The notes under the pieces are model-generated. The model had not been told where the DNA came from, searched no databases, and saw only the letters and a program-made list of their open reading frames with translations. A DNA stretch of 64,000 nucleotides from a virus: the IMG/VR virus record IMGVR_UViG_3300028840_006907, positions 384,001 through 448,000 of that record, one strand, 5' to 3'. The translations under genes were made by a program, and so were the position numbers. Below, piece by piece: positions 2,725 through 48,890 of this stretch; position 1 is the first letter of the stretch, and each line of letters begins with the position of its first letter.

Positions 2725-2726
2725 TT

Positions 2727-6035: not shown

Positions 6036-6036
6036 G

Positions 6037-25443: not shown

Positions 25444-28400
25444 ATGGCTGAGAATTTAGGAACGGGTGTTTCTTTTGTTGATGAGAGTAATGGGTATAAT
25501 TATGATAAAGTTGTTTTCCAAAAACAAAAGCCACCTTTAGATACTGAATTAAATCTTGCTCAAGAGATACAAAATTTACTGGCAAAAAGACATATAAAAG
25601 GAATGCCTTCTGGTTGGTTAAATATAGAGGACTTTTATACAAGTTCATTATTAGAAAACCAATTTTATACCCAAGATCCGGACACAGCTATTCCAGAATA
25701 TGCTGTTGTGAATGGTATGGTTCTTTATGTGACTAACACTGGTACTTCTGAAACAAATTCAAATTTGATCACTCTTACTGATCCTCCTACCTCAGGTAAT
25801 CTTGTTAATGGTGTAATCCTAGAAGTATGGAGAGCTTTATTAGATACAGAAACCGATAATAACAGACCTGATTCAACAGTGGTTATAGATTCGTTAATGG
25901 CTATTGATGCCGTTACTGAAAATAGTGCCTGGACAGTCGGGGAAAATGGGCTTATTCTAGCTACTGAAAATGGTGGTCAAACATGGTCGGTTCAATTAAT
26001 TGATACAAAAAAGAAATTAAATGATGTTCATTTTATAAATACAACAGTAGGTTGGGTAGCCGGTGATAATGGTGCCATAGGTAGAACTTCATCTGGTGGT
26101 GTAACTTGGCTCGTATTACAGAGTGGCTATACTGAGAATTTCAATGGGATTCATGCAGCTACACATCTAATTGCTTGGGTTGCTGGTGATGGTGGTATTA
26201 TTCTTAAAACCGTCAATGGAGTTAACTGGTCGGCTCAAAATAGTAATGTTACAGCAAATCTTAATGATATTTATTTCTATGATAGTTTAGTAGGATGGGC
26301 AGTAGGAGATAATGGTACTATAATAAAAACCACTGATGGTGGATCCAATTGGATAACATTAACAAGTGGTACCACAGAAAATTTAAACGCTGTCTTTTTC
26401 TATGATTTAAATTTTGGTTTTGCTGTTGGTGATAATGGTACAATTTTAAGATCATCTGATGGTGGGCTGTCCTGGGTTGATCAATCTGGTAACATATACA
26501 CTGGTTCTGGTTATACAAGTCTTTCAGTGAATTACACTGATGTCACAATGGCCCCTTCTCTTGATATCCACGTGACCAATGAAGAGGTAACTTCCCAATT
26601 TACAGGTTCAAATAAAAATTGTACTGTAGTGAATGTTCCTATGACTAAAGGTGATGGGTTAGGTACAACAACGAATAGCCCTGCTGATGTCGATGGTGAG
26701 GGTAATTTAAGTACTGTTGTAACTGTAAATGGTACTTCTGTTCTTATAGATAGCATTGATGGAACTACAGGTCAAATTATTCTTAATCAGGCTCCTCAAG
26801 CATGTGATACAGTCCTTGTCTCTTATTGGCATAAAGTCAGCCCTGATATTTTTACGGGTAGGGCATGGATTACAGGGGCATCTGGAACAGTGTTGATGAG
26901 TCCAGACATTGGTGCTAATTGGAATCAACAAACTCCAAATACCAGCTATGATTTAAATGGTGTAAGTTTTGTTGATCAAAATAAGGGATGGGTAGCTGGA
27001 GCATTTTCAGTGATGCGACATACTGAAGATGGTGGTACTACATGGACTACTCAAATCAGTGATACCGTTTCTCGAAGGGTGCAACGGGTTTATAATGAAG
27101 GTAATGTAGATACTGTTATCTTTTTGGATGATGAAATGATCCATCCTGACACAAACATAGAAACGACAAAAAGAGTTCAAATTCAATATAAAATAAGAGT
27201 TATAGAAAATGTTGATCCCTTTTCATATCCGGATGCGGGGCTAGGCTCAGCGGGTATTGTGGCTCTAGGGCCAAATGCTACAGGATCATTTGCTTATCAG
27301 AACATGGGTTCTACGACAGGTGATTATGGTTTATGGCAAGCGAAATGCTCTAATACAGTAGATGGGTACGCATGGGCTATCCCAATGTTTTTTGTCAATA
27401 GAAGAAATAGCACTACTTTTAATGCTGCCAATAATACAAATGGTTCTAATGCTAAAGGTACTTCAAATATCCGACCTGATCTTTTGACCGGTGTTGATGT
27501 TGTAGATCAGGATATTCTTGATGTCAGGAGACAAATATTTATCCCTTCAGTGACTGAATTACTAAATAGTAGTTTTGATGCCCTTATGAATAATCAGTTA
27601 AAAACTCGATTTTTCAGACAAACCACTGGTGGTGATAGTTATTCTGTTGAGCCTTTACAATTGGATTATATCGCGCATGGTTCTGGTACTGAAATTGATG
27701 CTACATTGAGCGAGGCTGTTTCGGGACAAGTCACATCAATTACAACAACGAGTACAATATCTCAAAGTGTTCCTGCATCTACTTCTTTACCTTTTGATGT
27801 GACATTAAGTATTCCAGTAGGAACTCGGGGATTATTTCATCCTAATTCTATTTATTATACAGCTCGTTATGTAAGTAATAGTGCCACATATGATGGGAAA
27901 CCTATTCCGGGAGAATTTACTGGTATAGGTACAAATTCAGTAACGTTTAATTTTAGTGCAAAAGTAAACACTACAAATGAAGACACTAATTTAGTCAGTT
28001 ATGATATTGTGGCTCATTATGTAATATTTAGTCCTAAGTCATTGAGTAAAATTCCTTCTACTCCTCAGCTAGTAGAAAATACAGGAACGGTAAGTGAACC
28101 TTCTTTTTTCTATAGAGGAGTATTTACCAGTGAAACTTCTGGTAGAAAGATTGAAGAATGGGATTCAGGTATTTCAGGATATCCGAGTTATACTCTAGCC
28201 TATCCTGTTATAGAGGCAGGAAGTACTGCACAGGAAGCCCGAGCTTCTTCGATTGAGGTACATTTATATATAAGACTAACTAGTACTGAAATACAAAGTA
28301 TTAATCAGATTAAGATAAGTCAGGAAGTTTATCCTGATGTTGCAGATACGACTTCTTATTATAATCTTTACTGTGTCAGTGAAATAAATAATATCACTTC

Positions 28401-29520
28401 TGGTTTTAGTTTTAAGATAGATGATATTGTAATCACAGATGCCATTTATATTGACAGTGCTTCTGGTTTCCCCTTTATCGAAGGTAATGTCATTGAAATT
28501 GTGGGTATGGCATTGGCAGCTACCGGTAATTCTTATACCAGAAATGGTGCAAGTGTTAATTTTACTCAGGGTGAGAAAAAAATAAGCCCATTTGCTTATT
28601 CATCTCGTTTAAAAATAACTTCATTTCCTCCTGGGTCTATATCAAGTGTTCAGTTTACTAGCCTCGATGCTGATAGTGGTCAAATCTCCACAGCTTCTGG
28701 GGTATTTCTTGGTATAAGTACAACAGAAACTGTGAATAGTTTAACTGATCATTTTGCTTGGGTTGATGTTGGAGCGGGAGATGTTCTTACTCCAGTAACA
28801 GTGACAGGATTTAATACCACGACTTTAACAGTAAATTTCGCTACTCCTATATCACCAACTAGTGTCAAGATACAGGCTTTAATAAAACAGGCTAATTTAA
28901 TTTATGGCACTGATGCTGATGATGGATTACAGATAGCTTATAATTTTATTCCGAGTCAAACTCCTACAAATCTTCCTTCCAGTTTAATAGTAGGGATGGT
29001 TACTAATCCTACAAGTATTTATATATCAAATTTAGGTACTGGAGGCAGTCTTGTAGATAAGGAACCTTATAGTTTCCCTATTGATAGTATCCCTGTAAAT
29101 AATAGCTCTATTATTGATGATAATGAATTTTATAATTTAGATCTATTTAGATTTTCTAATTTCTCAGTAGATAGTGGGTTTGTTCAGATGCCTACTATTG
29201 TTCCTGGTTCTTTTGGGGAAGAGTTAACTTTTTCAAGTTTAACTACTGATGAGTTGTTACGTACTTTTTATAGTACATGTGATACAGAATTTGCCTTCAG
29301 AACAGAAGGTATAAAAATTGGAATACCGAGAAAGATATTTATCGCTACTATAGGAAGAGTAAAAGAGAACTCTACTCAATTATTACGAGGTGAATATGTT
29401 CTTATAATAATTTCCAGAGATAGCCTTACTGATTTAGAAAATTACACAGGTTGTGAAACAGGAAGTGGTAATGTTATCGGGATCTACCGATTACCGAATA
29501 AGCCATTGGTAAGAAAGTAA
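25444..29520 (+). CDS. giant tail fibre/receptor-binding protein with BNR/Asp-box beta-propeller domain
   Basis: At least seven Asp-box-like motifs (TENGGQTWSV, SSGGVTWLV, VNGVNWSAQ, TTDGGSNWIT, SSDGGLSWVD, DIGANWNQQ, TEDGGTTWTT) at roughly regular spacing; N-terminal region paralogous to the 35440..38493 product. Confidence 0.55.
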   Translation: MAENLGTGVSFVDESNGYNYDKVVFQKQKPPLDTELNLAQEIQNLLAKRHIKGMPSGWLNIEDFYTSSLLENQFYTQDPDTAIPEYAVVNGMVLYVTNTGTSETNSNLITLTDPPTSGNLVNGVILEVWRALLDTETDNNRPDSTVVIDSLMAIDAVTENSAWTVGENGLILATENGGQTWSVQLIDTKKKLNDVHFINTTVGWVAGDNGAIGRTSSGGVTWLVLQSGYTENFNGIHAATHLIAWVAGDGGIILKTVNGVNWSAQNSNVTANLNDIYFYDSLVGWAVGDNGTIIKTTDGGSNWITLTSGTTENLNAVFFYDLNFGFAVGDNGTILRSSDGGLSWVDQSGNIYTGSGYTSLSVNYTDVTMAPSLDIHVTNEEVTSQFTGSNKNCTVVNVPMTKGDGLGTTTNSPADVDGEGNLSTVVTVNGTSVLIDSIDGTTGQIILNQAPQACDTVLVSYWHKVSPDIFTGRAWITGASGTVLMSPDIGANWNQQTPNTSYDLNGVSFVDQNKGWVAGAFSVMRHTEDGGTTWTTQISDTVSRRVQRVYNEGNVDTVIFLDDEMIHPDTNIETTKRVQIQYKIRVIENVDPFSYPDAGLGSAGIVALGPNATGSFAYQNMGSTTGDYGLWQAKCSNTVDGYAWAIPMFFVNRRNSTTFNAANNTNGSNAKGTSNIRPDLLTGVDVVDQDILDVRRQIFIPSVTELLNSSFDALMNNQLKTRFFRQTTGGDSYSVEPLQLDYIAHGSGTEIDATLSEAVSGQVTSITTTSTISQSVPASTSLPFDVTLSIPVGTRGLFHPNSIYYTARYVSNSATYDGKPIPGEFTGIGTNSVTFNFSAKVNTTNEDTNLVSYDIVAHYVIFSPKSLSKIPSTPQLVENTGTVSEPSFFYRGVFTSETSGRKIEEWDSGISGYPSYTLAYPVIEAGSTAQEARASSIEVHLYIRLTSTEIQSINQIKISQEVYPDVADTTSYYNLYCVSEINNITSGFSFKIDDIVITDAIYIDSASGFPFIEGNVIEIVGMALAATGNSYTRNGASVNFTQGEKKISPFAYSSRLKITSFPPGSISSVQFTSLDADSGQISTASGVFLGISTTETVNSLTDHFAWVDVGAGDVLTPVTVTGFNTTTLTVNFATPISPTSVKIQALIKQANLIYGTDADDGLQIAYNFIPSQTPTNLPSSLIVGMVTNPTSIYISNLGTGGSLVDKEPYSFPIDSIPVNNSSIIDDNEFYNLDLFRFSNFSVDSGFVQMPTIVPGSFGEELTFSSLTTDELLRTFYSTCDTEFAFRTEGIKIGIPRKIFIATIGRVKENSTQLLRGEYVLIIISRDSLTDLENYTGCETGSGNVIGIYRLPNKPLVRK

Positions 29521-30487: not shown

Positions 30488-33400
30488 ATGACTCAAATAT
30501 ATCTACCAGATTCAGAAGAACTCGGAAGACGCCGATTCCATGATGCTAAAAGTGATCGTCGTAATTTAAAAAATCTCGCTGAGCAACGTCTCCTTGAGAT
30601 GCGAACGTTATTGCCTTCTAATTACCCTAAAGATCCCTATAGTAGTAATCTTGCTTTATTCCATCGTTTTAATGCTCGGGAGCTGTCTCGAATAAGAATC
30701 TCTAATGATGATATATCAAGAGATTCTCAATACACTACGACAAGACCAGAGTATCTTCATCAGATTCTTGGTGAGAGGCTTTTTTTAGGCAATAGAATAG
30801 CTCCTCTTGGTTACAATGACCAGACATATAGAGAATTTTTAATAGCGATTAAAAACACTTATTTGCGGGGATCGCGGGTTGATGATATTGAAGCATTAGC
30901 CAGTCAGTTTACAGGTCAGGAAGTTATCATAAAAGAGTTGTATAGGGAATTAAGGAATCCTGATACATCTCTTGATGTCACTGACACAAATTACATGGTT
31001 GTTGAAGCATTGATACCTGGTCAATTACCTGCTGGTTATAATATAACTTCATTATTAAATGATTTAGATTTTTACATTAATTTAGTGCGGCCAGCGCATG
31101 TTTTATATGATACACGATTGATATGGACTGAGACCATTGATGTAAATAAGACAACAGATATCTATTTTGGTGATACCGGTGGTGGTTGTGTCCCTCTTTA
31201 TATTTTTGACCCTTTTGATGAAACAACGCTTATGGCGTTGCAGGTATTTGTCCTTCCTACTAGTGAAGGAGCAACAGGTCGAATAGATTCCATTCATCAT
31301 TGGGATTACCTTTTTTATTTGGAAGATGGCACCAGAGTATTAACTGAACCAGGTACTCAGGGAACACAGATTTTTGATGTAAATGGTCGTCAGATTAGTT
31401 TTAGCTCTCTTGAAATAGGTGATCATGTAAAAATAAATTATCAAATTATACCTGGTAATTTTCAATTCTGGTGGTATCCTGTAGGTTTGTTTCCTACATG
31501 GAGTTCACAGTTCTATAGAGATTATTACAGACTTCCCATATTCCAGGAATATGTAAAAAAACATATGGATTCTAAGGGGAGATTTCCTCTTCAGATAAGA
31601 ACAACTGAAACGACCGTTTGTGATCGTTGGGTAACAGATGCTCTTCAGCCTTATTATGAAGATTTAAGAACAAATTGTTCCAGTGGAAGTGTCCAGTCTA
31701 AAGATTATTCTTCTACTCTTAACATCAGAATGGGAAGTGGTCATTTTGCCAATCCTTATGGTACAAACCAGACAGCTCTGCCTGGAAATGAATTTGCTTT
31801 TTTCATGGAAAACACTCCCTTAACTGATGGATCGAGTAATCCAGCTACAGTTTCAGATGTTTCTGTGATGTTAGATGGAAGTTCTTTACCTCCTCAACCG
31901 GTAGTATATGTCGATGCTAGTTCCGGGAAAGTGCAATTAAGTGAGGACCATGAATATTGGGATAATACAGCATTAACTTTTCCTATTCCTGGGGAAGAGT
32001 TCCAATTTGATTATTCTTATCTTCAGGATAGTACTAATTATGATACATCATCTATATATGTCTATGGAGTGGGTAGCTGGCAGATGCCAAATGCTCCTCT
32101 TGTAGAAGGTGATAGTACGGGTATTCTTGCGGATACAAGTGATGTAACATTATCTGTAGATGGTACAGTAATAAGTAATGCAATAACAGATGTAAATGCT
32201 TTATTAGGGCATGTAACAGTTAATCAACTTTCGAGCTTTTGGAATAGTTCTGAATTAGGACGTTTACCTCAGGTAGGAGATGAGTTTTTATTTAGTTTCT
32301 TTTATGGTAAGAAATATCAATATTCTTGTCTTTTTGATGAATTGGGTAGAACTTTTGATACTTATATAGGTCCGAATTCAACTTATGGTATTGTTTTCGA
32401 CGGAGAATTAAACCAAAATCCTGAAACAGCTCCTATAACACCAGATGCAACTGCAGTAATAGGTTATCGTTATCGGGGTTATTTATTACATCATAGTTCG
32501 GTATTAAATTCTCCTGATACGTTACAATTAAATACTTTTCAGAAACCTGCTACTCGTGCTTCTATAATAAATCAGGCTAATACTATAAATCATTTTAATA
32601 TTTTCTTTTCACCTGAATTTCTTTATGATACTACGGCATATGATTATTTAGATGATTCTTATCTTGAAAATGGATTAGACCCGATTCTGAAATTAAATGT
32701 AGGTACTCCTCCTTTTCAAAAGACATGGTCATATCATCCAGGATTGGTTAACAGTAGAAAATTACAAGATATAAGAACAAATCATCGTTTACTACTTTAT
32801 TCTGATTTACTACTGAAAGAGTTCCAAGAAGGTAATGAAGACATACCTTTAAGTTCTATATGTGATTCAGAACGGGTAGAATTTAGAATACGTATTGATG
32901 GTGATGATATACCGCCTTTAGAAGAATGTCCTCCGTGGATTTTATTTGATTCTGTTCAGGTCGATGATGTTGAAGTTACAGTCCCGGGATTTTATCAGGG
33001 TGTACCAAATGTCAGAGTACCTGGAATGAATTTACGCGAAAGTTTTATTCTTAGGGAATTGGAATCTACTGGTGTTGGCGAATATACTTATACCTTTAAT
33101 ACTGATAGTAGTGCTACTCCTGAATATTACTTACCTGCAACATTTCCATATACGTATAATGGTGATACAATTAGCTTTCCTGCTTTACCTGTTATAGATA
33201 TTAATGGTAATCCGGCAACGATTAGTGATATAGAAGTTAGGGTAAATGGAGTTTTATGGACTGTATTAAGTCTTGATCCAGTGACAGGTTTTGTACAGGT
33301 AAGTCCGTATCCGGCTGGTCCGGCTATTCAAGTAGAGACAAAATATTACATAAACAATGTTGTGACAATGCCTATGGCAAATTGGGATTGGTCTAGGATT

Positions 33401-33802
33401 CTTGATGACGATGATGTCTTTCCAGGTTATTGTCAGGATGGTGTAGGTATTACGCTAGGACTCAATTTTGATGAATTCTTTACGTTTCTTGATGATGATA
33501 GTGATGGTATTAAGATAGTGTTTTTCAATAAGGATACTTTAAATGTTGAGGAGCATATCTTTTCAGGACCAGTTTTTGAGTATTACAATATAGCTGATGA
33601 CGAATTAGGTTCACCTGATAACTTTCCAAATGCTTTAGTAAGATTAGTAAATCCGATACACTTAACTAATCCTCTGAGTTATTCTGGTGATTATAGCTTT
33701 CTGAATGATAAAGTTGTGAGATTTAGGAAGAAAACATTTAAAGAGCTTCTTCCTAGTAAGACATTTCGAACTATAGAGTTGATGGAAATGATGCCTCTAT
33801 AA
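30488..33802 (+). CDS. large structural protein (1104 aa), function unknown
   Basis: Uninterrupted 3.3-kb ORF following an intergenic gap. Confidence 0.5.
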   Translation: MTQIYLPDSEELGRRRFHDAKSDRRNLKNLAEQRLLEMRTLLPSNYPKDPYSSNLALFHRFNARELSRIRISNDDISRDSQYTTTRPEYLHQILGERLFLGNRIAPLGYNDQTYREFLIAIKNTYLRGSRVDDIEALASQFTGQEVIIKELYRELRNPDTSLDVTDTNYMVVEALIPGQLPAGYNITSLLNDLDFYINLVRPAHVLYDTRLIWTETIDVNKTTDIYFGDTGGGCVPLYIFDPFDETTLMALQVFVLPTSEGATGRIDSIHHWDYLFYLEDGTRVLTEPGTQGTQIFDVNGRQISFSSLEIGDHVKINYQIIPGNFQFWWYPVGLFPTWSSQFYRDYYRLPIFQEYVKKHMDSKGRFPLQIRTTETTVCDRWVTDALQPYYEDLRTNCSSGSVQSKDYSSTLNIRMGSGHFANPYGTNQTALPGNEFAFFMENTPLTDGSSNPATVSDVSVMLDGSSLPPQPVVYVDASSGKVQLSEDHEYWDNTALTFPIPGEEFQFDYSYLQDSTNYDTSSIYVYGVGSWQMPNAPLVEGDSTGILADTSDVTLSVDGTVISNAITDVNALLGHVTVNQLSSFWNSSELGRLPQVGDEFLFSFFYGKKYQYSCLFDELGRTFDTYIGPNSTYGIVFDGELNQNPETAPITPDATAVIGYRYRGYLLHHSSVLNSPDTLQLNTFQKPATRASIINQANTINHFNIFFSPEFLYDTTAYDYLDDSYLENGLDPILKLNVGTPPFQKTWSYHPGLVNSRKLQDIRTNHRLLLYSDLLLKEFQEGNEDIPLSSICDSERVEFRIRIDGDDIPPLEECPPWILFDSVQVDDVEVTVPGFYQGVPNVRVPGMNLRESFILRELESTGVGEYTYTFNTDSSATPEYYLPATFPYTYNGDTISFPALPVIDINGNPATISDIEVRVNGVLWTVLSLDPVTGFVQVSPYPAGPAIQVETKYYINNVVTMPMANWDWSRILDDDDVFPGYCQDGVGITLGLNFDEFFTFLDDDSDGIKIVFFNKDTLNVEEHIFSGPVFEYYNIADDELGSPDNFPNALVRLVNPIHLTNPLSYSGDYSFLNDKVVRFRKKTFKELLPSKTFRTIELMEMMPL

Positions 33803-34505: not shown

Positions 34506-35447
34506 ATGTTTGAGAATCTTGGAGTATGTAAAGGACCTGGGACAATACTGGGTCAATTACAGATGGGTACAGAATCAATAAATATCTCTAAGATAGGCAG
34601 ACATTTTTATGCGTTGTTGAATAACCGGGTTATAATGACAGCAAAATCAAAGCAGGTTTTACAAAATAGAGTTGTGCCAGTTCTTTCTCATATTGTAGAA
34701 AACATCTGTAAAACATCTCAATTGGATTCAGCTCGATGGAGGCCGGTAGATAAGAGATACACTCAATTAGTAATAGATACGATTGAAAATATAAAGAAAA
34801 ATTTAAAACCGGTAGAGATCTATGTATTGAAAGCAAAACCAGATGAGACCCAAGATAATAGATCGATTCTATCAGAAAATAAACAAGGTATAATAGAAAA
34901 ATTAAATGATTATCGGTTAAATCTTAAAAAGTTTGAAGAGACGAAAAATAATTTACAAGAAGCTTCTGAGGTGCTTTTAAAGGTTAATCTTGACAGGAAA
35001 TTATGGGGTAGAAAAAATGTCATGGATATCATAAATGAGGCAAAGACTGGAATGGCTGAATTGTCTCAAGATTATGAAACTGTTGACAGTTGTTTGGAGC
35101 GATCTGATGAACAGGTTAATAAAGTACAAATTATAATAAGTAAAAAGATTGCTTCTAGAATTTTAAAAAGTACTCTTGGGAGTATCATTGAAAATTTTTC
35201 TATTTTAAAATCATTTTTATCAGAACTAGCACAAGTGTTATATAGGTTTTATGGTATTGATAACGTTTTTAAAAATCAAGTTGGTTATCCAGCTACATGG
35301 TTTTTAGATAGTGCGGTTTTTACAGACTTTCTTTTTGAATATGATAATTTAATCGATCAACTTATTAAATTCACTGAATTAGAATCAAATACGATAGAAC
35401 CATTACTATTGTGGAAAATAAAGATGACGGGAGTATCAAATGTCTGA
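34506..35447 (+). CDS. hypothetical protein, partly coiled-coil
   Basis: 313-aa ORF. Confidence 0.4.
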   Translation: MFENLGVCKGPGTILGQLQMGTESINISKIGRHFYALLNNRVIMTAKSKQVLQNRVVPVLSHIVENICKTSQLDSARWRPVDKRYTQLVIDTIENIKKNLKPVEIYVLKAKPDETQDNRSILSENKQGIIEKLNDYRLNLKKFEETKNNLQEASEVLLKVNLDRKLWGRKNVMDIINEAKTGMAELSQDYETVDSCLERSDEQVNKVQIIISKKIASRILKSTLGSIIENFSILKSFLSELAQVLYRFYGIDNVFKNQVGYPATWFLDSAVFTDFLFEYDNLIDQLIKFTELESNTIEPLLLWKIKMTGVSNV

Positions 35448-38400
35448 TTATTTAGGCCCAAACCAGACCAGAGTATTGGATTACGACAATAGAAGTTTTG
35501 AAAAAGTAGTTTACCAAAGGAAAAAACCTCCTCTATCAAGTGAAGTTAATCTTACAGGTGATATTTCATCTGAACATGCCAAAGATTTAGCTCAGTTTTT
35601 ACTTCCTAGTGGATGGGGAATTGTTGGTGAATTAAGAGATGATGTCACTGAAAGTAGCGCTGATGCTGGAGATGTGATTTGTTCTTCTACTTATACAGCA
35701 AATTCATTCAAATTACTATCTCTGGATAAAGGTGTAGAAGCACAGACATTAATAGCATATGTTAATGGCTGGAAGTTACTCGTTCAAGGATCAAATTCAT
35801 TAGATGAGAATAATATAATTACTCTTTCTGCTCCTCCTTCAACAGGTTATAGAGTAGATTTTGTATTTCTTGAAGTTTGGAGAAAACTTATTACTATATC
35901 TGATGTAGTGTATAAATATGGCAATATCCTTTATGGTGGTACGAATCCTTCTAATGATCTTGTTGATCCTGCAATTAATATTGAAACTTCTCTTAGAGTT
36001 CAAATACAGTATCGTATTAGAATAGTTGATGATATTGATATCGAATCTTATCCCGATGGTTTTGACCCTAATAAAGTCTTTGTACAAGGACCTCTTTCTT
36101 CTCCATTAAGTACATGTAGCCAAGCTTATTTTTCCCAGGTTTCCGGTGATCCTGGCCTCTGGAGAGCAGGAGTAGGTGATGCAGGAGCACAAACAGATCT
36201 ACAAACTGTTGATGGTCATACATATGCTATTCCTATGTTTGCTATTCACCGTCGAAATACCGGTACTTATAATGTGGAAACCCGTTCTAATGGTGCTGGA
36301 AAAAGTTTAGCTGATTATTTACTGGGTCAACCTTCGGATCGTCCCGATAACAGATATAACAATTGGGTAGTAACAGATGACATTTTGGATATGCGTCACA
36401 GAATTACTCCGGTCCAGAACATGAAAGAGATATGTGAGTCAGCTTTTGAAAAACTTACTCGTGGAAAAATCCGTCAAAAAATGGCAAAACTGACTTTAGG
36501 AGAAGATCATTTTGGAAAGATCCTTACTCAGGTTGATGCAGTAAGTAATGTGGATCTTGCAGGTTCGACTTTGATTGCCCAAGGTGATGGTTTAAGAAGA
36601 ATGTTTTCTAATGCTCAGATATCTCAGTCAGATACGCTTGCTGTAAAGACAGTAAATGATAAAACGAGCGGTACTCCAGGTTCACCGTGGGCCACTTCAG
36701 ATCAGGTACAAATCACAATTCCTACATATCCAACTGGTTCTTCTATAACAAGTATCGATGAAATTTATACTTCAAGTGGTGCTCTTACTTTATCTGTGGA
36801 TTATACTGTTTCTGGGACTGGTACAAATACAGTAACGATAACTATACTTGTCACATCTTCATTGATAGGGACAAGTGTACCTATCACTATCGATTATACG
36901 GTTATGCTTGCAGAAGGCCCAAATGGAATGACAGCTCTCCCAGAGAATTTCCTGGAAGTAAGAAATGAAGGTGTAGGAACTCAAATAATTGCTCCTATTG
37001 ATAATGATATCAGAGTAAGAAATGCTAATCCAGTAGTAGCAACTGATGGTACACATTTTCACATGTTGTCAAATCAGGGTGCCAATTCCACAGAACCTTA
37101 TGATTTCGGGCATCAAATGATTTATCATGCTTTAGGTAATGGTACTCAGTATATAACAGTTGATAGAACTGCATTTGGTTATGATATATTAGGTGTAGCA
37201 AGTGTCTATGTGAATAGTAATTATCGAACACCTCTTATTACCAGGACTTCCACTCAATATATTATCAATATGCAAAGTCCTGCAGTATCGTTAAATACTG
37301 ATATTGAAGTGAAACTTTATATAGGATCCAAGTTTTTTAATACAAATAAACAATCCAGAGCTGTAATCGATACTTATGAAATGAGTGAGCTTTCTCCATT
37401 ACAGTCACCGAATGGTATTTTAACGACATTTAATATAGACAGTACAAATAAGGCTATTCAAGCAGTAGCTAGTGGTGCTGTTCTGGATGGGGCTGGTATC
37501 GCTTATGTTGATGGAACTCAAGTAACTCTTACTAGTACTAACAGTAGATATCCTACCGATTCAACAAAATCTCGAATTGAAATAGAATTTAGCTCTGCTC
37601 CTGCAGGTAGTACTACAATAGAAGTACCCTTATTGATGAAAAGTGCTATCACATCATCTGAAGGTTATGATTTCTTTTATCATGCTGTTCCATATCAAGG
37701 GTTGCTAGATACAACTGCTTTTGGTGTTATAGAAGAAACAGGACCGGCCATGGTGACTACTGCTGGTTCAGGTGGTATTACTGATACTACGTTTACGGAT
37801 GGTGTAGCGATTTTTACTGCAGATAGTACTTCTGTAACAGGTGTAAATACAAATTGGCTAGCCGGAGTGAATCCTGGTTACGTTATCAGTGCTGATTCTA
37901 CTCCATCGAAACAGTTTGAAGTTTCACAGGTTTATAGTAACACGAGTCTAACTATCACAGGGAAACCAGATTTCACTTCTATCGGTGGTGAGTCCTACAC
38001 TATTACAGGAAAAGATATTCCTTCTTTTTCTCAATCTAATATTATCGATAGATTGCCAACATATGATAATACTCATGATAGTATGGGAAGAAGTGAAAAT
38101 ATTTCTAATGCGGTTTCAGATGGATACCCTGTTCTTGAGTCAAGGATAATGACCAAAGTACAGAATATTGTAGATGCTCCTCCAAATTCAGTGATATATG
38201 GTGTAAATACTGCTGATCGTGGGAGATCTACTATTAGTATTCCGAATGCTTCTTTGGGTTACGGTAATCTCGGTTTAAGATTTGAGAAATTGGATGCTAC
38301 AGGTCAATACCAGAAGACTTATCAATCCTATATTTTAAATAAAGATAATGATGGTAGGCTTTATTTAATGGTTGTAGCTAGTGAAACAGACCAATCAAGT

Positions 38401-38493
38401 CATTCAAGGTTTTTTAATGAACGTTCTAATTTGGATACAGTTGATATTTTTGAAATGCCTGGACGTCCTATAACTAAACGGGGTACTAATTAA
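35440..38493 (+). CDS. giant tail fibre-like protein, paralogue of the 25444..29520 product in its N-terminal domain
   Basis: Shared blocks with the 25444 product: 'KVVYQRKKPPL' vs 'KVVFQKQKPPL', 'VFLEVWRKLI' vs 'ILEVWRALL', 'RVQIQYRIRIVDDIDIESYPDG' vs 'RVQIQYKIRVIENVDPFSYPDAG', 'YAIPMFAIHRRN' vs 'WAIPMFFVNRRN'. Confidence 0.55.
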   Translation: MSDYLGPNQTRVLDYDNRSFEKVVYQRKKPPLSSEVNLTGDISSEHAKDLAQFLLPSGWGIVGELRDDVTESSADAGDVICSSTYTANSFKLLSLDKGVEAQTLIAYVNGWKLLVQGSNSLDENNIITLSAPPSTGYRVDFVFLEVWRKLITISDVVYKYGNILYGGTNPSNDLVDPAINIETSLRVQIQYRIRIVDDIDIESYPDGFDPNKVFVQGPLSSPLSTCSQAYFSQVSGDPGLWRAGVGDAGAQTDLQTVDGHTYAIPMFAIHRRNTGTYNVETRSNGAGKSLADYLLGQPSDRPDNRYNNWVVTDDILDMRHRITPVQNMKEICESAFEKLTRGKIRQKMAKLTLGEDHFGKILTQVDAVSNVDLAGSTLIAQGDGLRRMFSNAQISQSDTLAVKTVNDKTSGTPGSPWATSDQVQITIPTYPTGSSITSIDEIYTSSGALTLSVDYTVSGTGTNTVTITILVTSSLIGTSVPITIDYTVMLAEGPNGMTALPENFLEVRNEGVGTQIIAPIDNDIRVRNANPVVATDGTHFHMLSNQGANSTEPYDFGHQMIYHALGNGTQYITVDRTAFGYDILGVASVYVNSNYRTPLITRTSTQYIINMQSPAVSLNTDIEVKLYIGSKFFNTNKQSRAVIDTYEMSELSPLQSPNGILTTFNIDSTNKAIQAVASGAVLDGAGIAYVDGTQVTLTSTNSRYPTDSTKSRIEIEFSSAPAGSTTIEVPLLMKSAITSSEGYDFFYHAVPYQGLLDTTAFGVIEETGPAMVTTAGSGGITDTTFTDGVAIFTADSTSVTGVNTNWLAGVNPGYVISADSTPSKQFEVSQVYSNTSLTITGKPDFTSIGGESYTITGKDIPSFSQSNIIDRLPTYDNTHDSMGRSENISNAVSDGYPVLESRIMTKVQNIVDAPPNSVIYGVNTADRGRSTISIPNASLGYGNLGLRFEKLDATGQYQKTYQSYILNKDNDGRLYLMVVASETDQSSHSRFFNERSNLDTVDIFEMPGRPITKRGTN

Positions 38494-44089: not shown

Positions 44090-47000
44090 ATGGCACCAAA
44101 AAAACAATTTGTAAACACAGGATTTATGGAATTTGTGGAGGATACTGTTCAAACCAGAATAGCCGAAATGCCATGGATGGCTGATCGTACGTTTAAATTA
44201 GCCAAGAGCATGGAAGAAGTGGAAAATTACATTGATAGGGCGATAGAAGCGAAAAGATGTGCCCTTGATTTGGAAACGACAGGACTTAATACAAGGGTAA
44301 AAAAAGTAGATGGTAAAATTGTTCCTATTGGTAAAATAGTAGGTTTTGCTTTATGTTATGATCCGAAAGTGGCCATTTATATCCCTATTAATCATAGAGA
44401 AGGGATAGAATTTAATCTTCCAGAAGAGGCTGTTTTAAAGGAGATAAAACGTCTTTGTTATAATTGTATTACAATATACCATAATGCTAAATTCGATTTA
44501 ACTTATTTAAAGAATTACGGTATTGTTCTTGATAATCATAATCAATTCGAAGATACACTTTTGCTGGCGTATTTGCATGATTCAGGAAGAAAAGCCAATA
44601 AATTAAAGGATCTCTCTCCAGAATTACTTGATCAACCAATGTTAAAATTTAATGAGGTTGCCAAAGAAGGTCATTTTGATCTTGTCTCCCCTGATGTGGG
44701 GTATACATATGGAGCCTCTGATGCTATGTGTACTATGGATTTATATATCTTTTTTACGGAACAGGAAATTATAAAGAGTCAACAGATGATATATAACTTA
44801 GAGAAACGGGTTGTATTTGTTATGATGGATATGGAAGCAAATCTAATAAAAATTGATGTTCCATATCTCAAGGACTTAAAAACAAAAGTTGAAAACCGTA
44901 TAGAAGATATTAAAAAAGAGATACATCAATTGGTCGGTTATGAATTTAATTTGGGAAGTTCACAGAAATTAGGTAAAATACTATTCGATGATTTGAAATA
45001 TAAATATCCAGAGAAAACAAAAACCAAATCTGGGCAATACAGCACTGATAGTAAAACCTTAAATAAAATAGCTGACCTTTACCCCATTGTTAAGAAGATC
45101 ATAAATTTCCGTGGATTGGAAAAAGTTTTATCGACATATATTAATAATCTTTTGAACAACCACGATGAAGAAGGTTTTGTAAAACTTCAATTTAAACAGA
45201 CTGGAACTGATACCGGAAGATTTTCGAGTCCTGGTGGTCAGGGTATTCATATAGATGGGTCTTCAGGAGTTAATGTCCAGAGTATTCCAAAGATGCCTAG
45301 TGAGGATAATCCTGACATTGATATGAGAAGGGCGTTTATTGCTCGTCCTGGTAAAACGATGGTAGCGATTGACTATGCAAATGAAGAGATGCGGGTAGCT
45401 ACAAATATTTCGAATGAGACTGCCTGGATTGAATCGATTCATAAAGGAATTGATTTCCATACTGCTACAGGTGCTATTATCTCGGGAAAAGATCCTAAGG
45501 ATGTATTAAAAAGTGAGAGGAAAATAGGAAAGACAGTTAATTTTTTGGCCCTTTATTTAGGAGGCCCATTTACTCTTGCAGGTAATGCTAAAATAACTGT
45601 ACCGGAGGCCAAAAAGATTCTAGCCACATTTTTTGCAGGAGTTCCTAAACTGAAGAAATGGATTGACCGGGTGATCGTGGTAGCTAGAAAAGAGAAATTT
45701 GTTAAAACTATTTTTGGGCGTACTAGACCGTTAAATAAGTACTATGATAGTGGGGATAAGGGATTGGCTGCTCATGCAGATCGATGTGCAGTTAATACAA
45801 AAATTCAAGGTTGCCTTTGTCAAGAAGAGCGCTGTTTAACAACAGAAGGTTATTTATCTATTATAAAAATCAAAAAGTTAAAGGAATCAGGCCAAAATTT
45901 AAAAATATGGACTGGGGTTTCATGGGAGGATTTTGAAGTATTGGATCGTGGAGAGGCTCAATTAGCGATAATTGAATTAAAAAATGGAATGATTCTTCAT
46001 TGTGATACACGGCATGAAGTATTAACAGTAAATAATGAAAGATATGAATTTAAAAAATTTAATGAATTAACAGAAGATACTAATATATGTATATCTCGCC
46101 CTCAATTATTAAAATTTGGGAGTTATCCTGAGGAAATTATTTTTGAGGGAAATGTATGGAATGCACAGAAATTGAAAGTGAGTACGGCAGAGGAGTGGGA
46201 TTTTATAGCCTATTTATTAGGATGTGTTATTGGAGATGGCTCAATATACATTGATAAAAAGGCATCTAAATATGTTATAACATTAAATTTTGGTGAAGAA
46301 AAGATAAGAAGAATATTTCCTGATCTTAAGAGAAAATTAAATGATCTCGGATTAAATATTTCGGAACCTGTTTTAAATAAAGGTAGTAAAGGTATTTGTT
46401 ATAAAACGAGTATCTGTTCCGTTACTTTAACAAAACTTTTTGGAGAAATGGGTTATCATTTTCATGATGCTCGTGATAAGAGAATCCCTCAACGAATTAT
46501 GGAATCCCCTATAAAAATGAGACAATCATTTTTACGAGGTTATTTTGATACAGATGGATGTAAGAAAGAGGCCAATAAATATGGTTTCCATACTCCTAAT
46601 AAAGATCTATTGAGAGATATTCAATTATTAGCTTGGACCCTAGGATGTCCCTCTACTATTTATGATTGTGGTGATGGCTCATCCATATTTAATTGGATGA
46701 ATTATCGAATTTTTGCGGAATTAATGGACTTAACTTATAAAAAAGAAGAGAGAAAATGTAACACACAAAATATGCCTTTACCTGATTTTTTAAGAGAGCC
46801 TATATTAAATTCTTTAGGGAATTGTTATGTAAAAAATGGGAATGATCGCTCATATGTATGTAAAGTTAGGAAGGGTAAAAATGTTAGTTTACCTGGAATA
46901 GTGTCATTATTAGAAAGTTATAATTGTGAACTACCGGAAATTTATTATCATTCCAAATTAGAAAAGAAAAGAGTTTTAAGTAAAAAAGAAGTTACATACA

Positions 47001-47878
47001 CTTTATCAGTAAAATCTCCTTTACATCGGTTTGATTCTGCTGGAATTATAAGTAAAAATACTTCGGCGGATATTATGAAGGCTGTCATGGCCCGGATGAA
47101 CTCCTGGCTCACGAGAAATAATCTGCATGATGATATAAAAATATTGATTACCATGCATGATGAATTGGTTTTTGAGATTACAACTGAAAAATTGCAGATA
47201 CTGGTACCAGAGATTTGTAAGATCATGCAGTTGAATGATATTATTCAGGGTCAATTGAAATGGCCCATTCCTTTGGAAGTTGATATACAGTATGGTGATA
47301 CTTGGAGAGTTAAAGGTGATTTTCTTAAGGATTTTCCTGATTTGAGGAATAAATTAAGTGAGCCTTTAATGGAATTTGAATCTTTACAGAAGATAAAAGA
47401 TGATGTGCCAAAAGATAAAAATGATGAACCTCCGGTGGAAAGTAATAAAATTGAAGAAGAAAATTCAGAGAAAGATTCAAATGAGGTACCAGATAACCAG
47501 ATTATAGAGGAAAAAACTCCTTCTGAAATACAAGATATAGAAAAGTCTGAACAACATGATGTACCTAAAGATAAGGAGGTTTTGGAGAAAGTTGATAGTG
47601 GTACTGTAGATAGTAGTAAAATATCAGAAAAAAAAACTCTAAACGGCGGTGATATATCGGGTCAATATTTGATTTATACTCTGCGAGAATTGAGTACGAT
47701 AAGTTCACGATGGTTGAATGATATTTTGGTTTTTTTGAATGATGAGGGCAATCGATATGAAGAGAAAGATAAAAAAATTTTAAAAATCCGTGACAGATCA
47801 GGGAACTCTTTATTAGTTTCAGAGTATAAAGTACACCCTGAAAGTTTTTCCCTTTTGGCAAGATTTTTTGGGATATGA
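44090..47878 (+). CDS. family A DNA polymerase with 3'-5' exonuclease domain, interrupted by an intein
   Basis: Exo motifs 'LDLETTGL', 'YHNAKFDLTYL', 'YTYGASDAM'; pol motif A 'VAIDYANEEMRV', motif B 'RKIGKTVNFLALYLGG', motif C 'ITMHDELVFE'; conserved 'NTKIQG' and 'TSADIMKAVM' separated by a 416-aa insertion. Confidence 0.8.
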   Translation: MAPKKQFVNTGFMEFVEDTVQTRIAEMPWMADRTFKLAKSMEEVENYIDRAIEAKRCALDLETTGLNTRVKKVDGKIVPIGKIVGFALCYDPKVAIYIPINHREGIEFNLPEEAVLKEIKRLCYNCITIYHNAKFDLTYLKNYGIVLDNHNQFEDTLLLAYLHDSGRKANKLKDLSPELLDQPMLKFNEVAKEGHFDLVSPDVGYTYGASDAMCTMDLYIFFTEQEIIKSQQMIYNLEKRVVFVMMDMEANLIKIDVPYLKDLKTKVENRIEDIKKEIHQLVGYEFNLGSSQKLGKILFDDLKYKYPEKTKTKSGQYSTDSKTLNKIADLYPIVKKIINFRGLEKVLSTYINNLLNNHDEEGFVKLQFKQTGTDTGRFSSPGGQGIHIDGSSGVNVQSIPKMPSEDNPDIDMRRAFIARPGKTMVAIDYANEEMRVATNISNETAWIESIHKGIDFHTATGAIISGKDPKDVLKSERKIGKTVNFLALYLGGPFTLAGNAKITVPEAKKILATFFAGVPKLKKWIDRVIVVARKEKFVKTIFGRTRPLNKYYDSGDKGLAAHADRCAVNTKIQGCLCQEERCLTTEGYLSIIKIKKLKESGQNLKIWTGVSWEDFEVLDRGEAQLAIIELKNGMILHCDTRHEVLTVNNERYEFKKFNELTEDTNICISRPQLLKFGSYPEEIIFEGNVWNAQKLKVSTAEEWDFIAYLLGCVIGDGSIYIDKKASKYVITLNFGEEKIRRIFPDLKRKLNDLGLNISEPVLNKGSKGICYKTSICSVTLTKLFGEMGYHFHDARDKRIPQRIMESPIKMRQSFLRGYFDTDGCKKEANKYGFHTPNKDLLRDIQLLAWTLGCPSTIYDCGDGSSIFNWMNYRIFAELMDLTYKKEERKCNTQNMPLPDFLREPILNSLGNCYVKNGNDRSYVCKVRKGKNVSLPGIVSLLESYNCELPEIYYHSKLEKKRVLSKKEVTYTLSVKSPLHRFDSAGIISKNTSADIMKAVMARMNSWLTRNNLHDDIKILITMHDELVFEITTEKLQILVPEICKIMQLNDIIQGQLKWPIPLEVDIQYGDTWRVKGDFLKDFPDLRNKLSEPLMEFESLQKIKDDVPKDKNDEPPVESNKIEEENSEKDSNEVPDNQIIEEKTPSEIQDIEKSEQHDVPKDKEVLEKVDSGTVDSSKISEKKTLNGGDISGQYLIYTLRELSTISSRWLNDILVFLNDEGNRYEEKDKKILKIRDRSGNSLLVSEYKVHPESFSLLARFFGI
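45812..47059 (+). mobile_element. intein with LAGLIDADG homing endonuclease domain inserted in the polymerase (N-terminal boundary could alternatively be the second Cys at 45833)
   Basis: Starts at Cys directly after 'IQG'; block B 'LHCDTRHEVL'; LAGLIDADG motifs 'FIAYLLGCVIGDGSIY' and 'FLRGYFDTDGC'; C-terminal blocks 'TYTLSV...HRFDSAGIISKN' followed by Thr; removing it restores 'IQG-TSADIMK'. Confidence 0.7.
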
Positions 47879-48128: not shown

Positions 48129-48890
48129 ATGCTACCTACTAATGATATTGCTGTCTTTGCCCAAAAAAATGATGCAGAATTTCGTGCTCTAGTCCGAAAA
48201 CAGTGCGAGTATCTTGATTATCCTGGTTCACCTGATGATGTTGTCCAAGAGCTTTATGTGAAGTTCTTAACAAAAAAGAAAATCATTGAAGCTTATGATC
48301 CCAGTTATAATGTACAAATATCTTCTTACCTTTTTAAAATTATCCGTAATTTTATAATCACCAGAGTGAAAAGTCACGATGGTCGATTTCGTCGGTGCCG
48401 TGTTTTAACCCCTTCTCCTACTGATGATACTAACGAGTTCGATCTTATTCCCGCTTATTATGATGTTTCAGATGATTTCTACGACAATCAATATTTTAAC
48501 AATAATTCTTTTATGGAAGAATTCAGCGATTTTGAGCGTCAGTTTTCAAAATCACCTCAGAACATAAAATTTAAGTTACGAAAGAGACAACATAAAAATA
48601 CTTCTCTCAATTTTTTAAAAATATTGGAACGTCTTCAAAAGCGTGGTAAAATCGGTGAAGAATTTAATGAAATCAAGGATTTAATCACAGAGATAGAAGA
48701 AAACGGGTGTACTCTATTGGACCTTTTCCGACTTCTGTATAAGGGATACAACAATAAAATGATCGCTCGGATTTATGGAGTATCAACAACTACAATAAGT
48801 GCTATGAAAAGCAAATTAGCAAAAGCCATGATTAAATACGGTATAAAGTATGATCGAGCTACGGTGTCCAAAGTGTCAATCCAAAGTTGA
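48129..48890 (+). CDS. sigma-70 family (ECF-like) sigma factor
   Basis: Region 2-like 'DVVQELYVKFLTK...SSYLFKIIRNFIITRVKS', region 4 HTH-like 'KMIARIYGVSTTTISAMKSKLAKAM'. Confidence 0.5.
   Translation: MLPTNDIAVFAQKNDAEFRALVRKQCEYLDYPGSPDDVVQELYVKFLTKKKIIEAYDPSYNVQISSYLFKIIRNFIITRVKSHDGRFRRCRVLTPSPTDDTNEFDLIPAYYDVSDDFYDNQYFNNNSFMEEFSDFERQFSKSPQNIKFKLRKRQHKNTSLNFLKILERLQKRGKIGEEFNEIKDLITEIEENGCTLLDLFRLLYKGYNNKMIARIYGVSTTTISAMKSKLAKAMIKYGIKYDRATVSKVSIQS

What the first reader, a model, noticed from the sequence alone, without database searches (positions are those of the whole stretch)
45812..47059. LAGLIDADG intein splitting the family A DNA polymerase between the conserved IQG and (T/S)ADIMK motifs
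Polymerase motifs A, B and C are all present, but the conserved 'N-T-K-I-Q-G' is followed by 416 aa that start with Cys, contain a TxxH block ('DTRHEVL'), two LAGLIDADG motifs ('LLGCVIGDGSIY', 'LRGYFDTDGC') and end 'HRFDSAGIISKN' before Thr. Conceptual removal yields 'IQG-TSADIMKAVM', the canonical contiguous polymerase sequence. The penultimate residue is Lys rather than the usual His, which is less common and may affect splicing chemistry. The N-terminal boundary could instead be the second Cys ('CLTTEGYL', 45833).
Basis: partly seen in the sequence, partly recalled or inferred. Interest (0 to 1): 0.55.

Follow-up and report, generated by a model that had tools for sequence, protein, structure and literature searches.

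The report
Homing-endonuclease intein inside phage DNA polymerase
The family A DNA polymerase gene of this huge-phage contig is interrupted in frame by a 416-residue self-splicing intein carrying a LAGLIDADG homing endonuclease; this is an ordinary kind of selfish element, here belonging to a large, mostly metagenomic lineage with unusual helper residues (Asp, Thr and Lys in place of Thr, Asp and His).

Summary
ORF 44090-47878 (+, 1262 aa) is a family A DNA polymerase. Residues 575-990 (nt 45812-47059, 416 aa) are an in-frame insert between 'NTKIQG' and 'TSADIMK'.

- **Optional insert:** the 15 closest orthologs (78-63.5% extein identity, ~820-850 aa) lack it and read 'IQG-TSADIMK' without a gap.
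- **Same site elsewhere:** 20 homologs from the first search, and 104 of the representatives analysed from an exhaustive search, carry a related insert at the same site.
- **Conserved splicing residues:** Cys1, the block B His, the block F His, the terminal Asn and a +1 Thr/Ser/Cys. The +1 nucleophile is present in 20/20 intein alleles against 49/102 intein-less ones.
- **Fold:** an AlphaFold model (pLDDT 91.8) matches solved endonuclease-bearing inteins (TliVMA, PI-PfuI, PI-TkoII, PI-SceI) and I-DmoI.
- **N-terminal boundary:** the first Cys (45812). The second Cys is V or I in relatives.
- **One correction:** 'DTRH' is DxxH, not TxxH.
- **Penultimate Lys:** a lineage trait, not decay. It co-occurs with Asp at B:7 and Thr at F:4 (76 of 104).

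This is a new member of a known kind, of low to moderate interest. Splicing and endonuclease activity are inferred, not shown.

The parts
44090..47878 (+). polA precursor gene: 1262 aa, 144.5 kDa. A family A DNA polymerase with a 3'-5' exonuclease domain, interrupted by the intein.
   Evidence: ORF list. Pfam DNA_pol_A E 7e-87, DNA_pol_A_exo1 E 2e-9. Identical protein on 388-470 kb metagenomic contigs. Masses.
44090..45811 (+). N-extein, aa 1-574: exonuclease domain, polymerase motif A (45371-45394) and motif B (45518-45565). Ends ...NTKIQG.
   Evidence: Gap-free alignment to the Klenow fragment. Motif coordinates.
45812..47059 (+). Intein, 416 aa, 48.0 kDa, pI 8.6: Cys1 ... Ser414-Lys415-Asn416.
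45812..46141 (+). N-terminal HINT splicing half, intein aa 1-110. Block A is CLCQEERCLTTEG (45812-45850). Block B is GMILHCDTRHEVL (45986-46024), with Asp65 at B:7 and His68 at B:10.
   Evidence: Invariant C1, L2, T10, G13, W33, T34, G35, W38 and H68 in alignment A1. Beta-strand model with pLDDT 96-97.
46142..46933 (+). LAGLIDADG homing endonuclease, followed by a helical region that may help bind DNA (a guess); intein aa 111-374. Motif 1 is at 46214-46249 (catalytic Asp142) and motif 2 at 46532-46561 (catalytic Asp248).
   Evidence: Pfam LAGLIDADG_3. Alignment to I-DmoI places D142 and D248 opposite its motif acidic residues. Foldseek match to I-DmoI has TM 0.75 on the target. Helices 325-369 are in the model.
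46934..47059 (+). C-terminal HINT splicing half, intein aa 375-416. Block F is TYTLSV...H (46994-47011; Thr397 at F:4, His405). Block G is GIISKN (47042-47059).
47060..47878 (+). C-extein, aa 991-1262 plus the stop codon. Thr+1 (47060-47062), TSADIMK, and motif C MHDELVFE (47153-47176). From 47315 onward it carries a ~190-aa C-terminal extension.

Best explanation
**What it is.** A class 1 intein carrying a LAGLIDADG homing endonuclease, inserted in the family A DNA polymerase of a huge tailed phage. The insertion point lies between the residues that correspond to E. coli Pol I Gly850 and Thr851, directly after the conserved Gln849.

**Proposed splicing (inferred).** The gene is translated as a 144.5-kDa precursor in which the polymerase domain is interrupted just after the conserved Gln849 position and before motif C.
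1. Cys575 (intein Cys1) makes an N-S acyl shift at the Gly574-Cys575 bond.
2. The Thr991 (+1) hydroxyl takes over the N-extein by transesterification.
3. Asn990 (intein Asn416) cyclises and releases the intein.
4. An O-N shift leaves a normal Gly-Thr peptide bond.
The products are an 846-aa (96.5 kDa) polymerase reading ...NTKIQG-TSADIMK... and a free 48-kDa intein.

**Helper residues.** They are non-canonical but lineage-typical: Asp65 at block B position 7, His68 at B:10, Thr397 at F:4, the block F His405, and Ser414-Lys415 before Asn416.

**Proposed homing (inferred).** The free intein, or the precursor, would act as a double-motif LAGLIDADG endonuclease with catalytic Asp142 and Asp248. 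It would cut intein-less polA alleles of related co-infecting phages around ...AAAATTCARGG|ACTTCGGC.... Recombinational repair would then copy the intein in.

**Shown versus inferred.** Shown here: the anatomy, presence/absence among orthologs, residue conservation and the predicted fold. Inferred: the splicing chemistry, the endonuclease activity and its target.
For: 1. **Precise optional insert.** A MAFFT alignment of the 104 closest polymerases places the 416 aa between query residues 574 and 990, flanked by IQG and TSADIMK. The 15 nearest exteins (78.1-63.5% identity) have no insert. The nearest intein-bearing allele is 63% identical in the extein and 53% in the intein.
2. **Conserved gene order.** An intein-less locus (L002) and intein-plus loci (L003, L004) share the window's gene order. 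The DNA at the empty site of L002 is nearly identical to the joined flanks of the window.
3. **Seamless spliced product.** The conceptually spliced protein aligns gap-free to the Klenow fragment across the junction.
4. **Conserved splicing residues.** In 17 same-site inteins, C1, H68, H405 and N416 are invariant. In 104 same-site representatives from an exhaustive search of 1.84 billion representative proteins, the counts are C1 104/104, block B His 104/104, terminal Asn 101/101 aligned, and +1 residue T56/S39/C9.
5. **+1 nucleophile tracks the intein.** It is present in 20/20 intein alleles against 49/102 intein-less alleles (Fisher p = 3e-6, not corrected for phylogeny).
6. **Splicing blocks survive endonuclease loss.** Same-site versions that have lost all or part of the endonuclease (212, 300 and 358 aa) keep the splicing blocks intact. 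The HINT halves are more conserved (56% and 61%) than the endonuclease part (40%).
7. **Fold.** The AlphaFold2 model has pLDDT 91.8 and pTM 0.91. The best PDB matches are endonuclease-bearing inteins: TliVMA 7qss (E 3e-16), PI-PfuI, PhoVMA, PI-TkoII and PI-SceI, followed by I-DmoI.
8. **Similarity to annotated inteins.** The insert matches annotated inteins of Staphylococcus, Bacillus and Vibrio ICP1 phages, starting at its first Cys.
9. **Not an intron.** No group I or II intron model matches the region.
Against: - No experimental evidence of splicing or DNA cleavage exists for this or any member of the lineage that I could find.
- Three assisting residues depart from the canonical set: Asp for Thr at B:7, Thr for Asp at F:4, and Lys for His at G:6. 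None of the solved inteins whose alignments were printed shows this combination; the TliVMA alignment shows a Thr at B:7 and an Asp at F:4. How the active site is arranged is therefore unverified.
- Thr is generally a weaker +1 nucleophile than Cys.
- Pfam's Intein_splicing model scores only 16.3 bits, below its 35.8-bit cutoff.
- The conservation statistics are phylogenetically non-independent.
- The proposed endonuclease target is inferred only from the empty-site sequence.
Confidence: 0.9

Rival explanations
1. The intein splices, but its endonuclease is no longer active or no longer finds targets. It would then be a vertically inherited passenger rather than a currently mobile element.
For: - Endonuclease decay is common at this very site: relatives of 212, 300 and 358 aa, and Asn in place of the first catalytic Asp in 25 of 104 representatives.
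- The endonuclease part is the least conserved region, at 40% mean identity.
- No near-identical copy of this intein was found in a different polymerase background. The best match is 53% identical.
Against: - Both catalytic Asp residues (D142, D248) and both motifs are intact here.
- The endonuclease domain is full length and confidently modelled.
- The patchy distribution among close exteins is what mobility produces.
- The intein's lower third-position G+C, 0.18 against 0.27 in the exteins, would fit a separate history, though it is weak evidence.
Confidence: 0.3
2. The insert is a fixed, non-splicing accessory domain of the polymerase: a domesticated HINT/LAGLIDADG module that stays in the mature enzyme.
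For: - Pfam's Intein_splicing model is below threshold.
- Helper residues are non-canonical.
- Splicing has not been demonstrated.
Against: - Most orthologs, including the 15 closest, lack the insert.
- The insert sits directly after the position aligned to Gln849 of E. coli Pol I, inside a stretch that is gap-free in the Klenow alignment.
- Cys1, the terminal Asn and the +1 nucleophile are conserved even where the endonuclease has been deleted.
- The +1 residue is always a nucleophile when the insert is present and is not one in half of the alleles without it.
Confidence: 0.04
3. The intein starts at the second Cys ('CLTTEGYL', 45833), leaving a 7-residue 'CLCQEER' insertion in the mature polymerase.
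For: 'CLTTEG' resembles a block A start when read on its own.
Against: - The position of the second Cys is Val or Ile in many same-site relatives, whereas the first Cys and the Leu after it are invariant. C1 is present in 104/104.
- Intein-less orthologs have no extra residues between QG and T/S.
- Matches to annotated inteins begin at the first Cys.
- In the model the first strand begins at residue 2.
Confidence: 0.02
4. The intein is a splicing-dead relic and this polA copy is a non-functional gene.
For: The penultimate His is missing, and the B:7 and F:4 residues are non-canonical.
Against: - The 3.8-kb ORF is intact.
- The same Asp/Thr/Lys constellation is kept in 76 of 104 divergent representatives, so it is under selection.
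- Inteins without the penultimate His are known to splice. One phage intein splices faster with its native Gly than with His (PMC5050341; PMC4031507 and the references cited there).
Confidence: 0.05

Closest known systems
Large class 1 inteins with an embedded LAGLIDADG homing endonuclease (PI-SceI/Sce VMA, PI-PfuI, PI-TkoII, Tli and Pho VMA inteins)
   Same: - Architecture: a HINT splicing domain split by a double-motif LAGLIDADG endonuclease, followed by an extra helical region.
- Cys1, the block B His, the block F His and the terminal Asn, with a +1 nucleophile.
- Insertion at a highly conserved catalytic-site motif of a replication enzyme.
- These are the best structural matches.
   Different: - Sequence identity is only 10-15%.
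- The host protein is a family A polymerase.
- Helper residues are Asp (B:7), Thr (F:4) and Lys (G:6), instead of Thr or Asn, Asp, and His. The solved TliVMA intein has TxxH and an Asp at F:4.
Same-site ('allelic') inteins in family A polymerases of metagenomic phages, including GenBank LR745208.1 (485-kb uncultured phage)
   Same: - The same insertion point, QG|(T/S/C)xAD, the same block A 'CLxxxxR(V/I/C)xT', the same domain order and a homologous endonuclease.
- JGI's automatic annotation already names some of them 'DNA polymerase I-like ... /intein/homing endonuclease'.
   Different: - The window's copy is at most 53% identical to any other.
- LR745208.1 and its group use the canonical Ser/Asp/His set ('...ITHN|TSAD'). 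That polymerase also carries a second intein at the motif B lysine.
Phage class 1 inteins that lack the penultimate His (mycobacteriophage inteins with Gly, Lys or Ser; Kelley et al. 2016, PMC5050341)
   Same: These are phage-borne class 1 inteins in replication and packaging genes with a non-His penultimate residue, Lys included. The cited paper argues that the substitution tunes splicing rather than disabling it.
   Different: - The host proteins and insertion sites differ.
- I did not find the coupled Asp (B:7) / Thr (F:4) exchange seen here in the passages of that paper that I read.
Inteins in bacterial DNA polymerase I (Novikova et al. 2016, PMC4760082)
   Same: A family A polymerase is reported there as an intein host.
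   Different: - The main-text passages retrieved for 'DNA polymerase I' give no insertion site, and no supplementary files were held, so identity of the site could not be checked.
- A pattern scan of 185,579 bacterial and archaeal species genomes for the Lys-type C-terminal junction found nothing.

Membership tests
Intein (class 1 protein-splicing element) | In-frame insertion at a conserved site of a host protein, absent from orthologs, whose removal restores the contiguous host sequence | tested here: met
   The 15 closest orthologs lack it. The spliced sequence aligns gap-free to the Klenow fragment.
Intein (class 1 protein-splicing element) | N-terminal Cys or Ser nucleophile (block A position 1) | tested here: met
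   Cys575 (TGC at 45812-45814). It is invariant in 17/17 and 104/104 same-site relatives.
Intein (class 1 protein-splicing element) | C-terminal Asn (or Gln/Asp) followed by a Cys, Ser or Thr +1 extein nucleophile | tested here: met
   Asn990 followed by Thr991. Asn is present in 101/101 aligned relatives. The +1 residue is T, S or C in 104/104, and in 20/20 intein alleles against 49/102 without the intein.
Intein (class 1 protein-splicing element) | Block B histidine (B:10) | tested here: met
   His68 of the intein, invariant.
Intein (class 1 protein-splicing element) | Canonical assisting residues Thr B:7, Asp F:4 and His G:6. These are frequent but not obligatory: reviews PMC4031507 and PMC7664689 state that they vary and that inteins lacking them can still splice. 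| tested here: not met
   Asp65, Thr397 and Lys415 are found instead. The same triple occurs in 76 of 104 same-site representatives. This makes it a variant within class 1; it is not an exclusion criterion.
Intein (class 1 protein-splicing element) | HINT fold | tested here: met
   AlphaFold2 pLDDT 91.8. Foldseek probability 1.00 to the TliVMA, PI-PfuI, PhoVMA, PI-TkoII and PI-SceI inteins. This rests on a predicted model, not a solved structure.
Intein (class 1 protein-splicing element) | Autocatalytic excision with ligation of the exteins | not testable with these tools
   Needs expression plus a western blot or mass spectrometry.
Class 3 inteins | No N-terminal nucleophile; Trp B:12, Cys F:4 and Thr G:5 (the WCT motif) | tested here: not met
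   Cys1 is present. B:12 is Val, F:4 is Thr and G:5 is Ser.
Class 2 inteins (KlbA type) | Ala1, with Cys+1 attacking the N-terminal splice junction directly | tested here: not met
   Position 1 is Cys and +1 is Thr.
LAGLIDADG homing endonuclease (single-chain, two-motif) | Two LAGLIDADG helices, each ending in a catalytic acidic residue, within a pseudo-dimeric alpha-beta fold | tested here: met
   Pfam LAGLIDADG_3 E 5.5e-11. D142 and D248 align with the motif acidic residues of I-DmoI. Foldseek to I-DmoI gives TM 0.75 on the target.
LAGLIDADG homing endonuclease (single-chain, two-motif) | Site-specific cleavage of the intein-less allele | not testable with these tools
   Only the candidate target could be derived, from the L002 empty site and the joined flanks of the window.
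Family A DNA polymerase (host protein) | 3'-5' exonuclease domain plus polymerase motifs A, B and C | tested here: met
   Pfam. phmmer E 2e-63 to the Klenow fragment over residues 81-656 of the spliced protein.
Group I/II intron carrying an endonuclease ORF | Structured intron RNA; insert not required to be in frame with the exons | tested here: not met
   No intron family matched with E <= 1 in 45300-47600. The reading frame is continuous and has HINT splicing blocks at both ends.

The most novel reading that the evidence does not exclude
The window's intein may represent a large, apparently undescribed lineage of class 1 inteins dedicated to the Gly850|Thr851 site of phage family A polymerases.
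- At least 76 clusters at 50% identity carry its signature, out of 104 same-site representatives analysed.
- The two residues that flank the N-terminal scissile bond have exchanged identities: Asp at B:7 and Thr at F:4, instead of Thr/Ser at B:7 and Asp at F:4.
- The penultimate His is replaced by Lys.
- No sequence analysed has Asp at both positions or at neither.

If the exchange is a true compensatory rearrangement of the active site, with Lys415 taking over the role of His in Asn cyclisation, the lineage would be a distinct mechanistic variant. It would be worth a structure and kinetic study, and might supply splicing domains with different pH or extein dependence.
Probability: 0.25. Interest if true: 0.45.

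Novelty: new member of a known kind. Interest (0 to 1): 0.22.

Why it matters
- **Annotation.** The gene should be annotated as an intein-containing precursor: mature polymerase 846 aa, intein 416 aa. Left as it is, it would distort polymerase alignments and phylogenies of huge phages.
- **Biology.** It adds to a familiar picture. The most conserved catalytic motifs of phage replication enzymes are hot spots for homing elements. This polymerase clade has two such sites: after the motif B lysine, and after the Gln-Gly that follows the template-contacting Gln.
- **Beyond the ordinary.** The Lys-type lineage is large and carries a coupled Asp/Thr exchange and a penultimate Lys. I found no experimental study of it. 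It could interest people who study or engineer splicing chemistry.

Tried and rejected
- **Megablast against 50,697 phage records:** no match with the gene, so no close cultured relative exists there.
- **Word-indexed protein search with the intein alone:** only 3 fragments. The full-length query and the exhaustive profile search were needed.
- **NCBI or source names for the exact protein:** none on record.
- **Genome scan with a short junction alignment (A2):** nothing in 185,579 bacterial and archaeal species genomes, and only 4 IMG/VR contigs. The patterns were narrow, so this is a lower bound.
- **Junction-spanning tblastn against phage records:** only LR745208.1 crosses the junction. All other hits are inteins in other genes.
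- **Literature:** nothing for 'penultimate lysine' with intein. The supplementary tables of Novikova et al. are not held, so I could not check whether this exact site has a published name.
- **Other inteins in the window:** profiles built from A1 found none.
- **Group I/II intron reading:** rejected.
- **Second-Cys boundary:** rejected.
- **Distances in the model:** The compensatory-swap idea stays untested.

Full report
**The observation.**
ORF 44090-47878 on the + strand encodes 1262 aa. Pfam finds a family A polymerase domain (E 7e-87) split into two stretches, a 3'-5' exonuclease domain, and a LAGLIDADG_3 domain at residues 812-877.
- 'NTKIQG' ends at 45811.
- The insert runs 45812-47059 (416 aa). 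It starts with TGC (Cys) and ends AAA AAT (Lys-Asn), followed by ACT (Thr).

One detail is wrong. 'DTRH' places Asp, not Thr, three residues before the His. Block B therefore reads DxxH rather than TxxH.

**The insert is optional.**
A search of 5.8 billion proteins returned the identical protein on metagenomic contigs of up to 470 kb, plus 1290 homologs. Many homologs of ~800-850 aa, up to 79% identical, read 'N(S/T)KIQG(T/S/A)(S/A)ADIMK' without interruption.

A MAFFT alignment of the 104 closest homologs shows two long optional blocks.
- The first follows 'RKIGK' of motif B. It is empty in the window and occupied in 23 homologs by mini (131-151 aa) or full-size (363-392 aa) inserts.
- The second lies exactly between query residues 574 and 990.

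The 15 closest exteins (78.1-63.5% identity) all lack the second insert. The nearest carrier is 63% identical in the extein and 53% in the insert.

Gene order around polA is the same in an intein-less locus (L002) and in intein-plus loci (L003, L004). Upstream are an SNF2 helicase, DnaB and a primase zinc ribbon. Downstream is a sigma-70-like gene and, in the window and L002, a glycosyltransferase. The DNA of the empty site in L002 is almost the same as the joined flanks of the window.

**The spliced product is a normal polymerase.**
The 846-aa conceptual product aligns to the Klenow fragment in one stretch (E 2e-63), with 'adrcavntkiqgtsadimkavm' opposite 'aeraainapmqgtaadiikram' and no gap. 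I counted chain positions and used the established fact that the Klenow fragment starts at Pol I residue 324.
- The occupied site is then Gly850|Thr851, one residue after Gln849.
- The other hot spot is Lys758|Ala759, in motif B.

**It is an intein.**
Seventeen same-site inserts align with C1, L2, T10, G13, W33-T34-G35, W38, H68, H405 and N416 invariant.

An exhaustive profile search of 1.84 billion representative proteins found 467 proteins at E <= 1e-30. From the top 150 and the earlier hits I analysed 120 inserts that matched the profile end to end. Of these, 104 sit at the same polymerase site. They have Cys1 in 104/104, the block B His in 104/104, the terminal Asn in all 101 aligned, and a +1 residue of T (56), S (39) or C (9).

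In the first homolog set the +1 position is a nucleophile in 20/20 intein alleles. In the 102 intein-less alleles it is one in 49 and is A, G, V, I, L or M in the other 53 (Fisher p = 3e-6, uncorrected for relatedness).

Natural versions that have lost all or part of the endonuclease (212, 300 and 358 aa) keep the terminal blocks. The HINT halves are more conserved than the middle: 56% and 61% against 40%.

AlphaFold2 with this alignment gives pLDDT 91.8 and pTM 0.91. Foldseek against the PDB ranks endonuclease-bearing inteins first: TliVMA at E 3e-16, then PI-PfuI, PhoVMA, PI-TkoII and PI-SceI, followed by I-DmoI.

The insert also matches annotated inteins in Staphylococcus helicase genes and in Bacillus and Vibrio ICP1 ribonucleotide reductase genes. 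Those matches start at its first residue. No intron RNA family matches the region.

**The endonuclease.**
Both LAGLIDADG motifs are intact. Asp142 and Asp248 align with the motif acidic residues of I-DmoI. Among same-site relatives the first is Asn in 25 of 104, and several have deletions.

The window's copy therefore looks like one of the still-armed members, but activity is inferred. The candidate target is the empty-site sequence. The intein's third-position G+C is lower than that of the exteins, 0.18 against 0.27. This is weak support for a separate history.

**The penultimate Lys.**
It is a family trait. In the 104 same-site representatives G:6 is K in 77, H in 21, R in 2 and Q in 1. It travels with two other changes.

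| B:7 | F:4 | G:6 | same-site representatives |
|---|---|---|---|
| Asp | Thr | Lys | 76 |
| Ser | Asp | His | 19 |

Thirteen related inteins in other proteins have Ser or Thr at B:7 with Asp and His. A few same-site sequences combine Asp and Thr with His, Arg or Gln. None has Asp at both positions or at neither.

These look like two clades, so the pattern may go back to a single ancestral event. The printed alignment to the solved TliVMA intein shows a Thr at B:7 and an Asp at F:4.

Reviews state that B:7, F:4 and G:6 are assisting, variable positions (PMC4031507, PMC7664689). Kelley et al. report Gly, Lys and Ser at the penultimate position of mycobacteriophage inteins, and faster splicing with the native Gly than with His (PMC5050341). 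I found nothing on this particular triple. The library is limited, so absence there is not proof of novelty.

**Context and distribution.**
The window carries a baseplate J-like protein and many very large ORFs without Pfam matches. The contigs holding the gene are 388-470 kb, so this is a huge tailed phage.

- Among 50,697 GenBank phage records, only the unannotated 485-kb LR745208.1 has an intein at this site. It is the canonical-His type and comes with a second intein at the motif B lysine.
- A narrow pattern scan found the Lys-type junction on 4 IMG/VR contigs and in no bacterial or archaeal reference genome.
- Inteins and homing endonucleases in replication genes of large phages are a well-documented theme (PMC7886860, PMC12880540, PMC7824862).
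- Bacterial Pol I is listed as an intein host (PMC4760082).
- JGI's pipeline already labels some of these proteins as intein-containing.

**Verdict.**
The boundary is at the first Cys.
- **Kind:** a new member of a known kind, a class 1 LAGLIDADG intein at a catalytic motif of a phage replication enzyme.
- **Mildly unusual:** the Asp/Thr/Lys helper set, shared by a large uncharacterised metagenomic lineage.
- **Not shown:** splicing, endonuclease activity and the mechanistic meaning of the residue exchange remain to be tested.

Noticed in passing
window 56804-59245 (+): An 813-aa protein has Major Vault Protein domains: MVP_shoulder E 1.4e-23, Vault_3 E 3e-11, and a Band_7/SPFH match. An MVP-like protein in a huge phage is unexpected and was not examined further.
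   Followed up: no
window 47315-47875 (+), C-terminus of polA: The polymerase continues ~190 aa past the end of the Klenow-like domain. There is an acidic low-complexity linker, then a ~70-aa module that orthologs appear to share (by eye: P0058, P0094 and P0121-P0123). It has no Pfam match. It may be a docking module for another replisome protein; this is a guess.
   Followed up: partly
window 45532|45533 (between Lys481 and Thr482, motif B 'RKIGK|TVNF'): This is a second intein hot spot of the polymerase clade, equivalent to E. coli Lys758|Ala759. It is empty in the window. In 23 of 104 homologs it is occupied by mini (131-151 aa) or full-size (363-392 aa) inteins, and some proteins carry inteins at both sites.
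   Followed up: partly
L005 (GenBank LR745208.1, 485-kb uncultured phage) 1462-6738: An unannotated 1758-aa family A polymerase has two inteins. One follows the motif B lysine (...DSK|C...ITHN|SCNF...) and one is at the same QG|TSAD site as the window.
   Followed up: partly
window 45812-47059 and alignment A1 /: Strict coupling across same-site inteins: Asp B:7 goes with Thr F:4 (mostly with Lys G:6), while Ser/Thr B:7 goes with Asp F:4 and His G:6. No mixed Asp/Asp or Ser/Thr forms occur among the 120 sequences analysed.
   Followed up: partly
window 45812-45835: The intein begins C-L-C-Q-E-E-R-C. Cys3 is unique to this copy, and Cys8 is C, V or I in relatives. Whether these extra cysteines near Cys1 could form a redox-sensitive disulfide was not examined.
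   Followed up: no
window 45812-47059 versus 44090-45811 plus 47060-47875: The intein has lower G+C (0.300 against 0.345) and much lower third-position G+C (0.180 against 0.274) than the exteins.
   Followed up: partly
window 2727-6035, 7652-9940, 9941-11872, 12492-17834, 30488-33802, 35440-38493 (+): Six ORFs of 643-1780 aa have no Pfam match at E <= 0.001. The neighbouring 22258-25431 is Baseplate_J-like, and 25444-29520 carries BNR-type repeats.
   Followed up: no
window 48129-48890 (+): A sigma-70-like gene lies immediately downstream of polA. The arrangement is conserved in the intein-less and intein-plus relatives.
   Followed up: no
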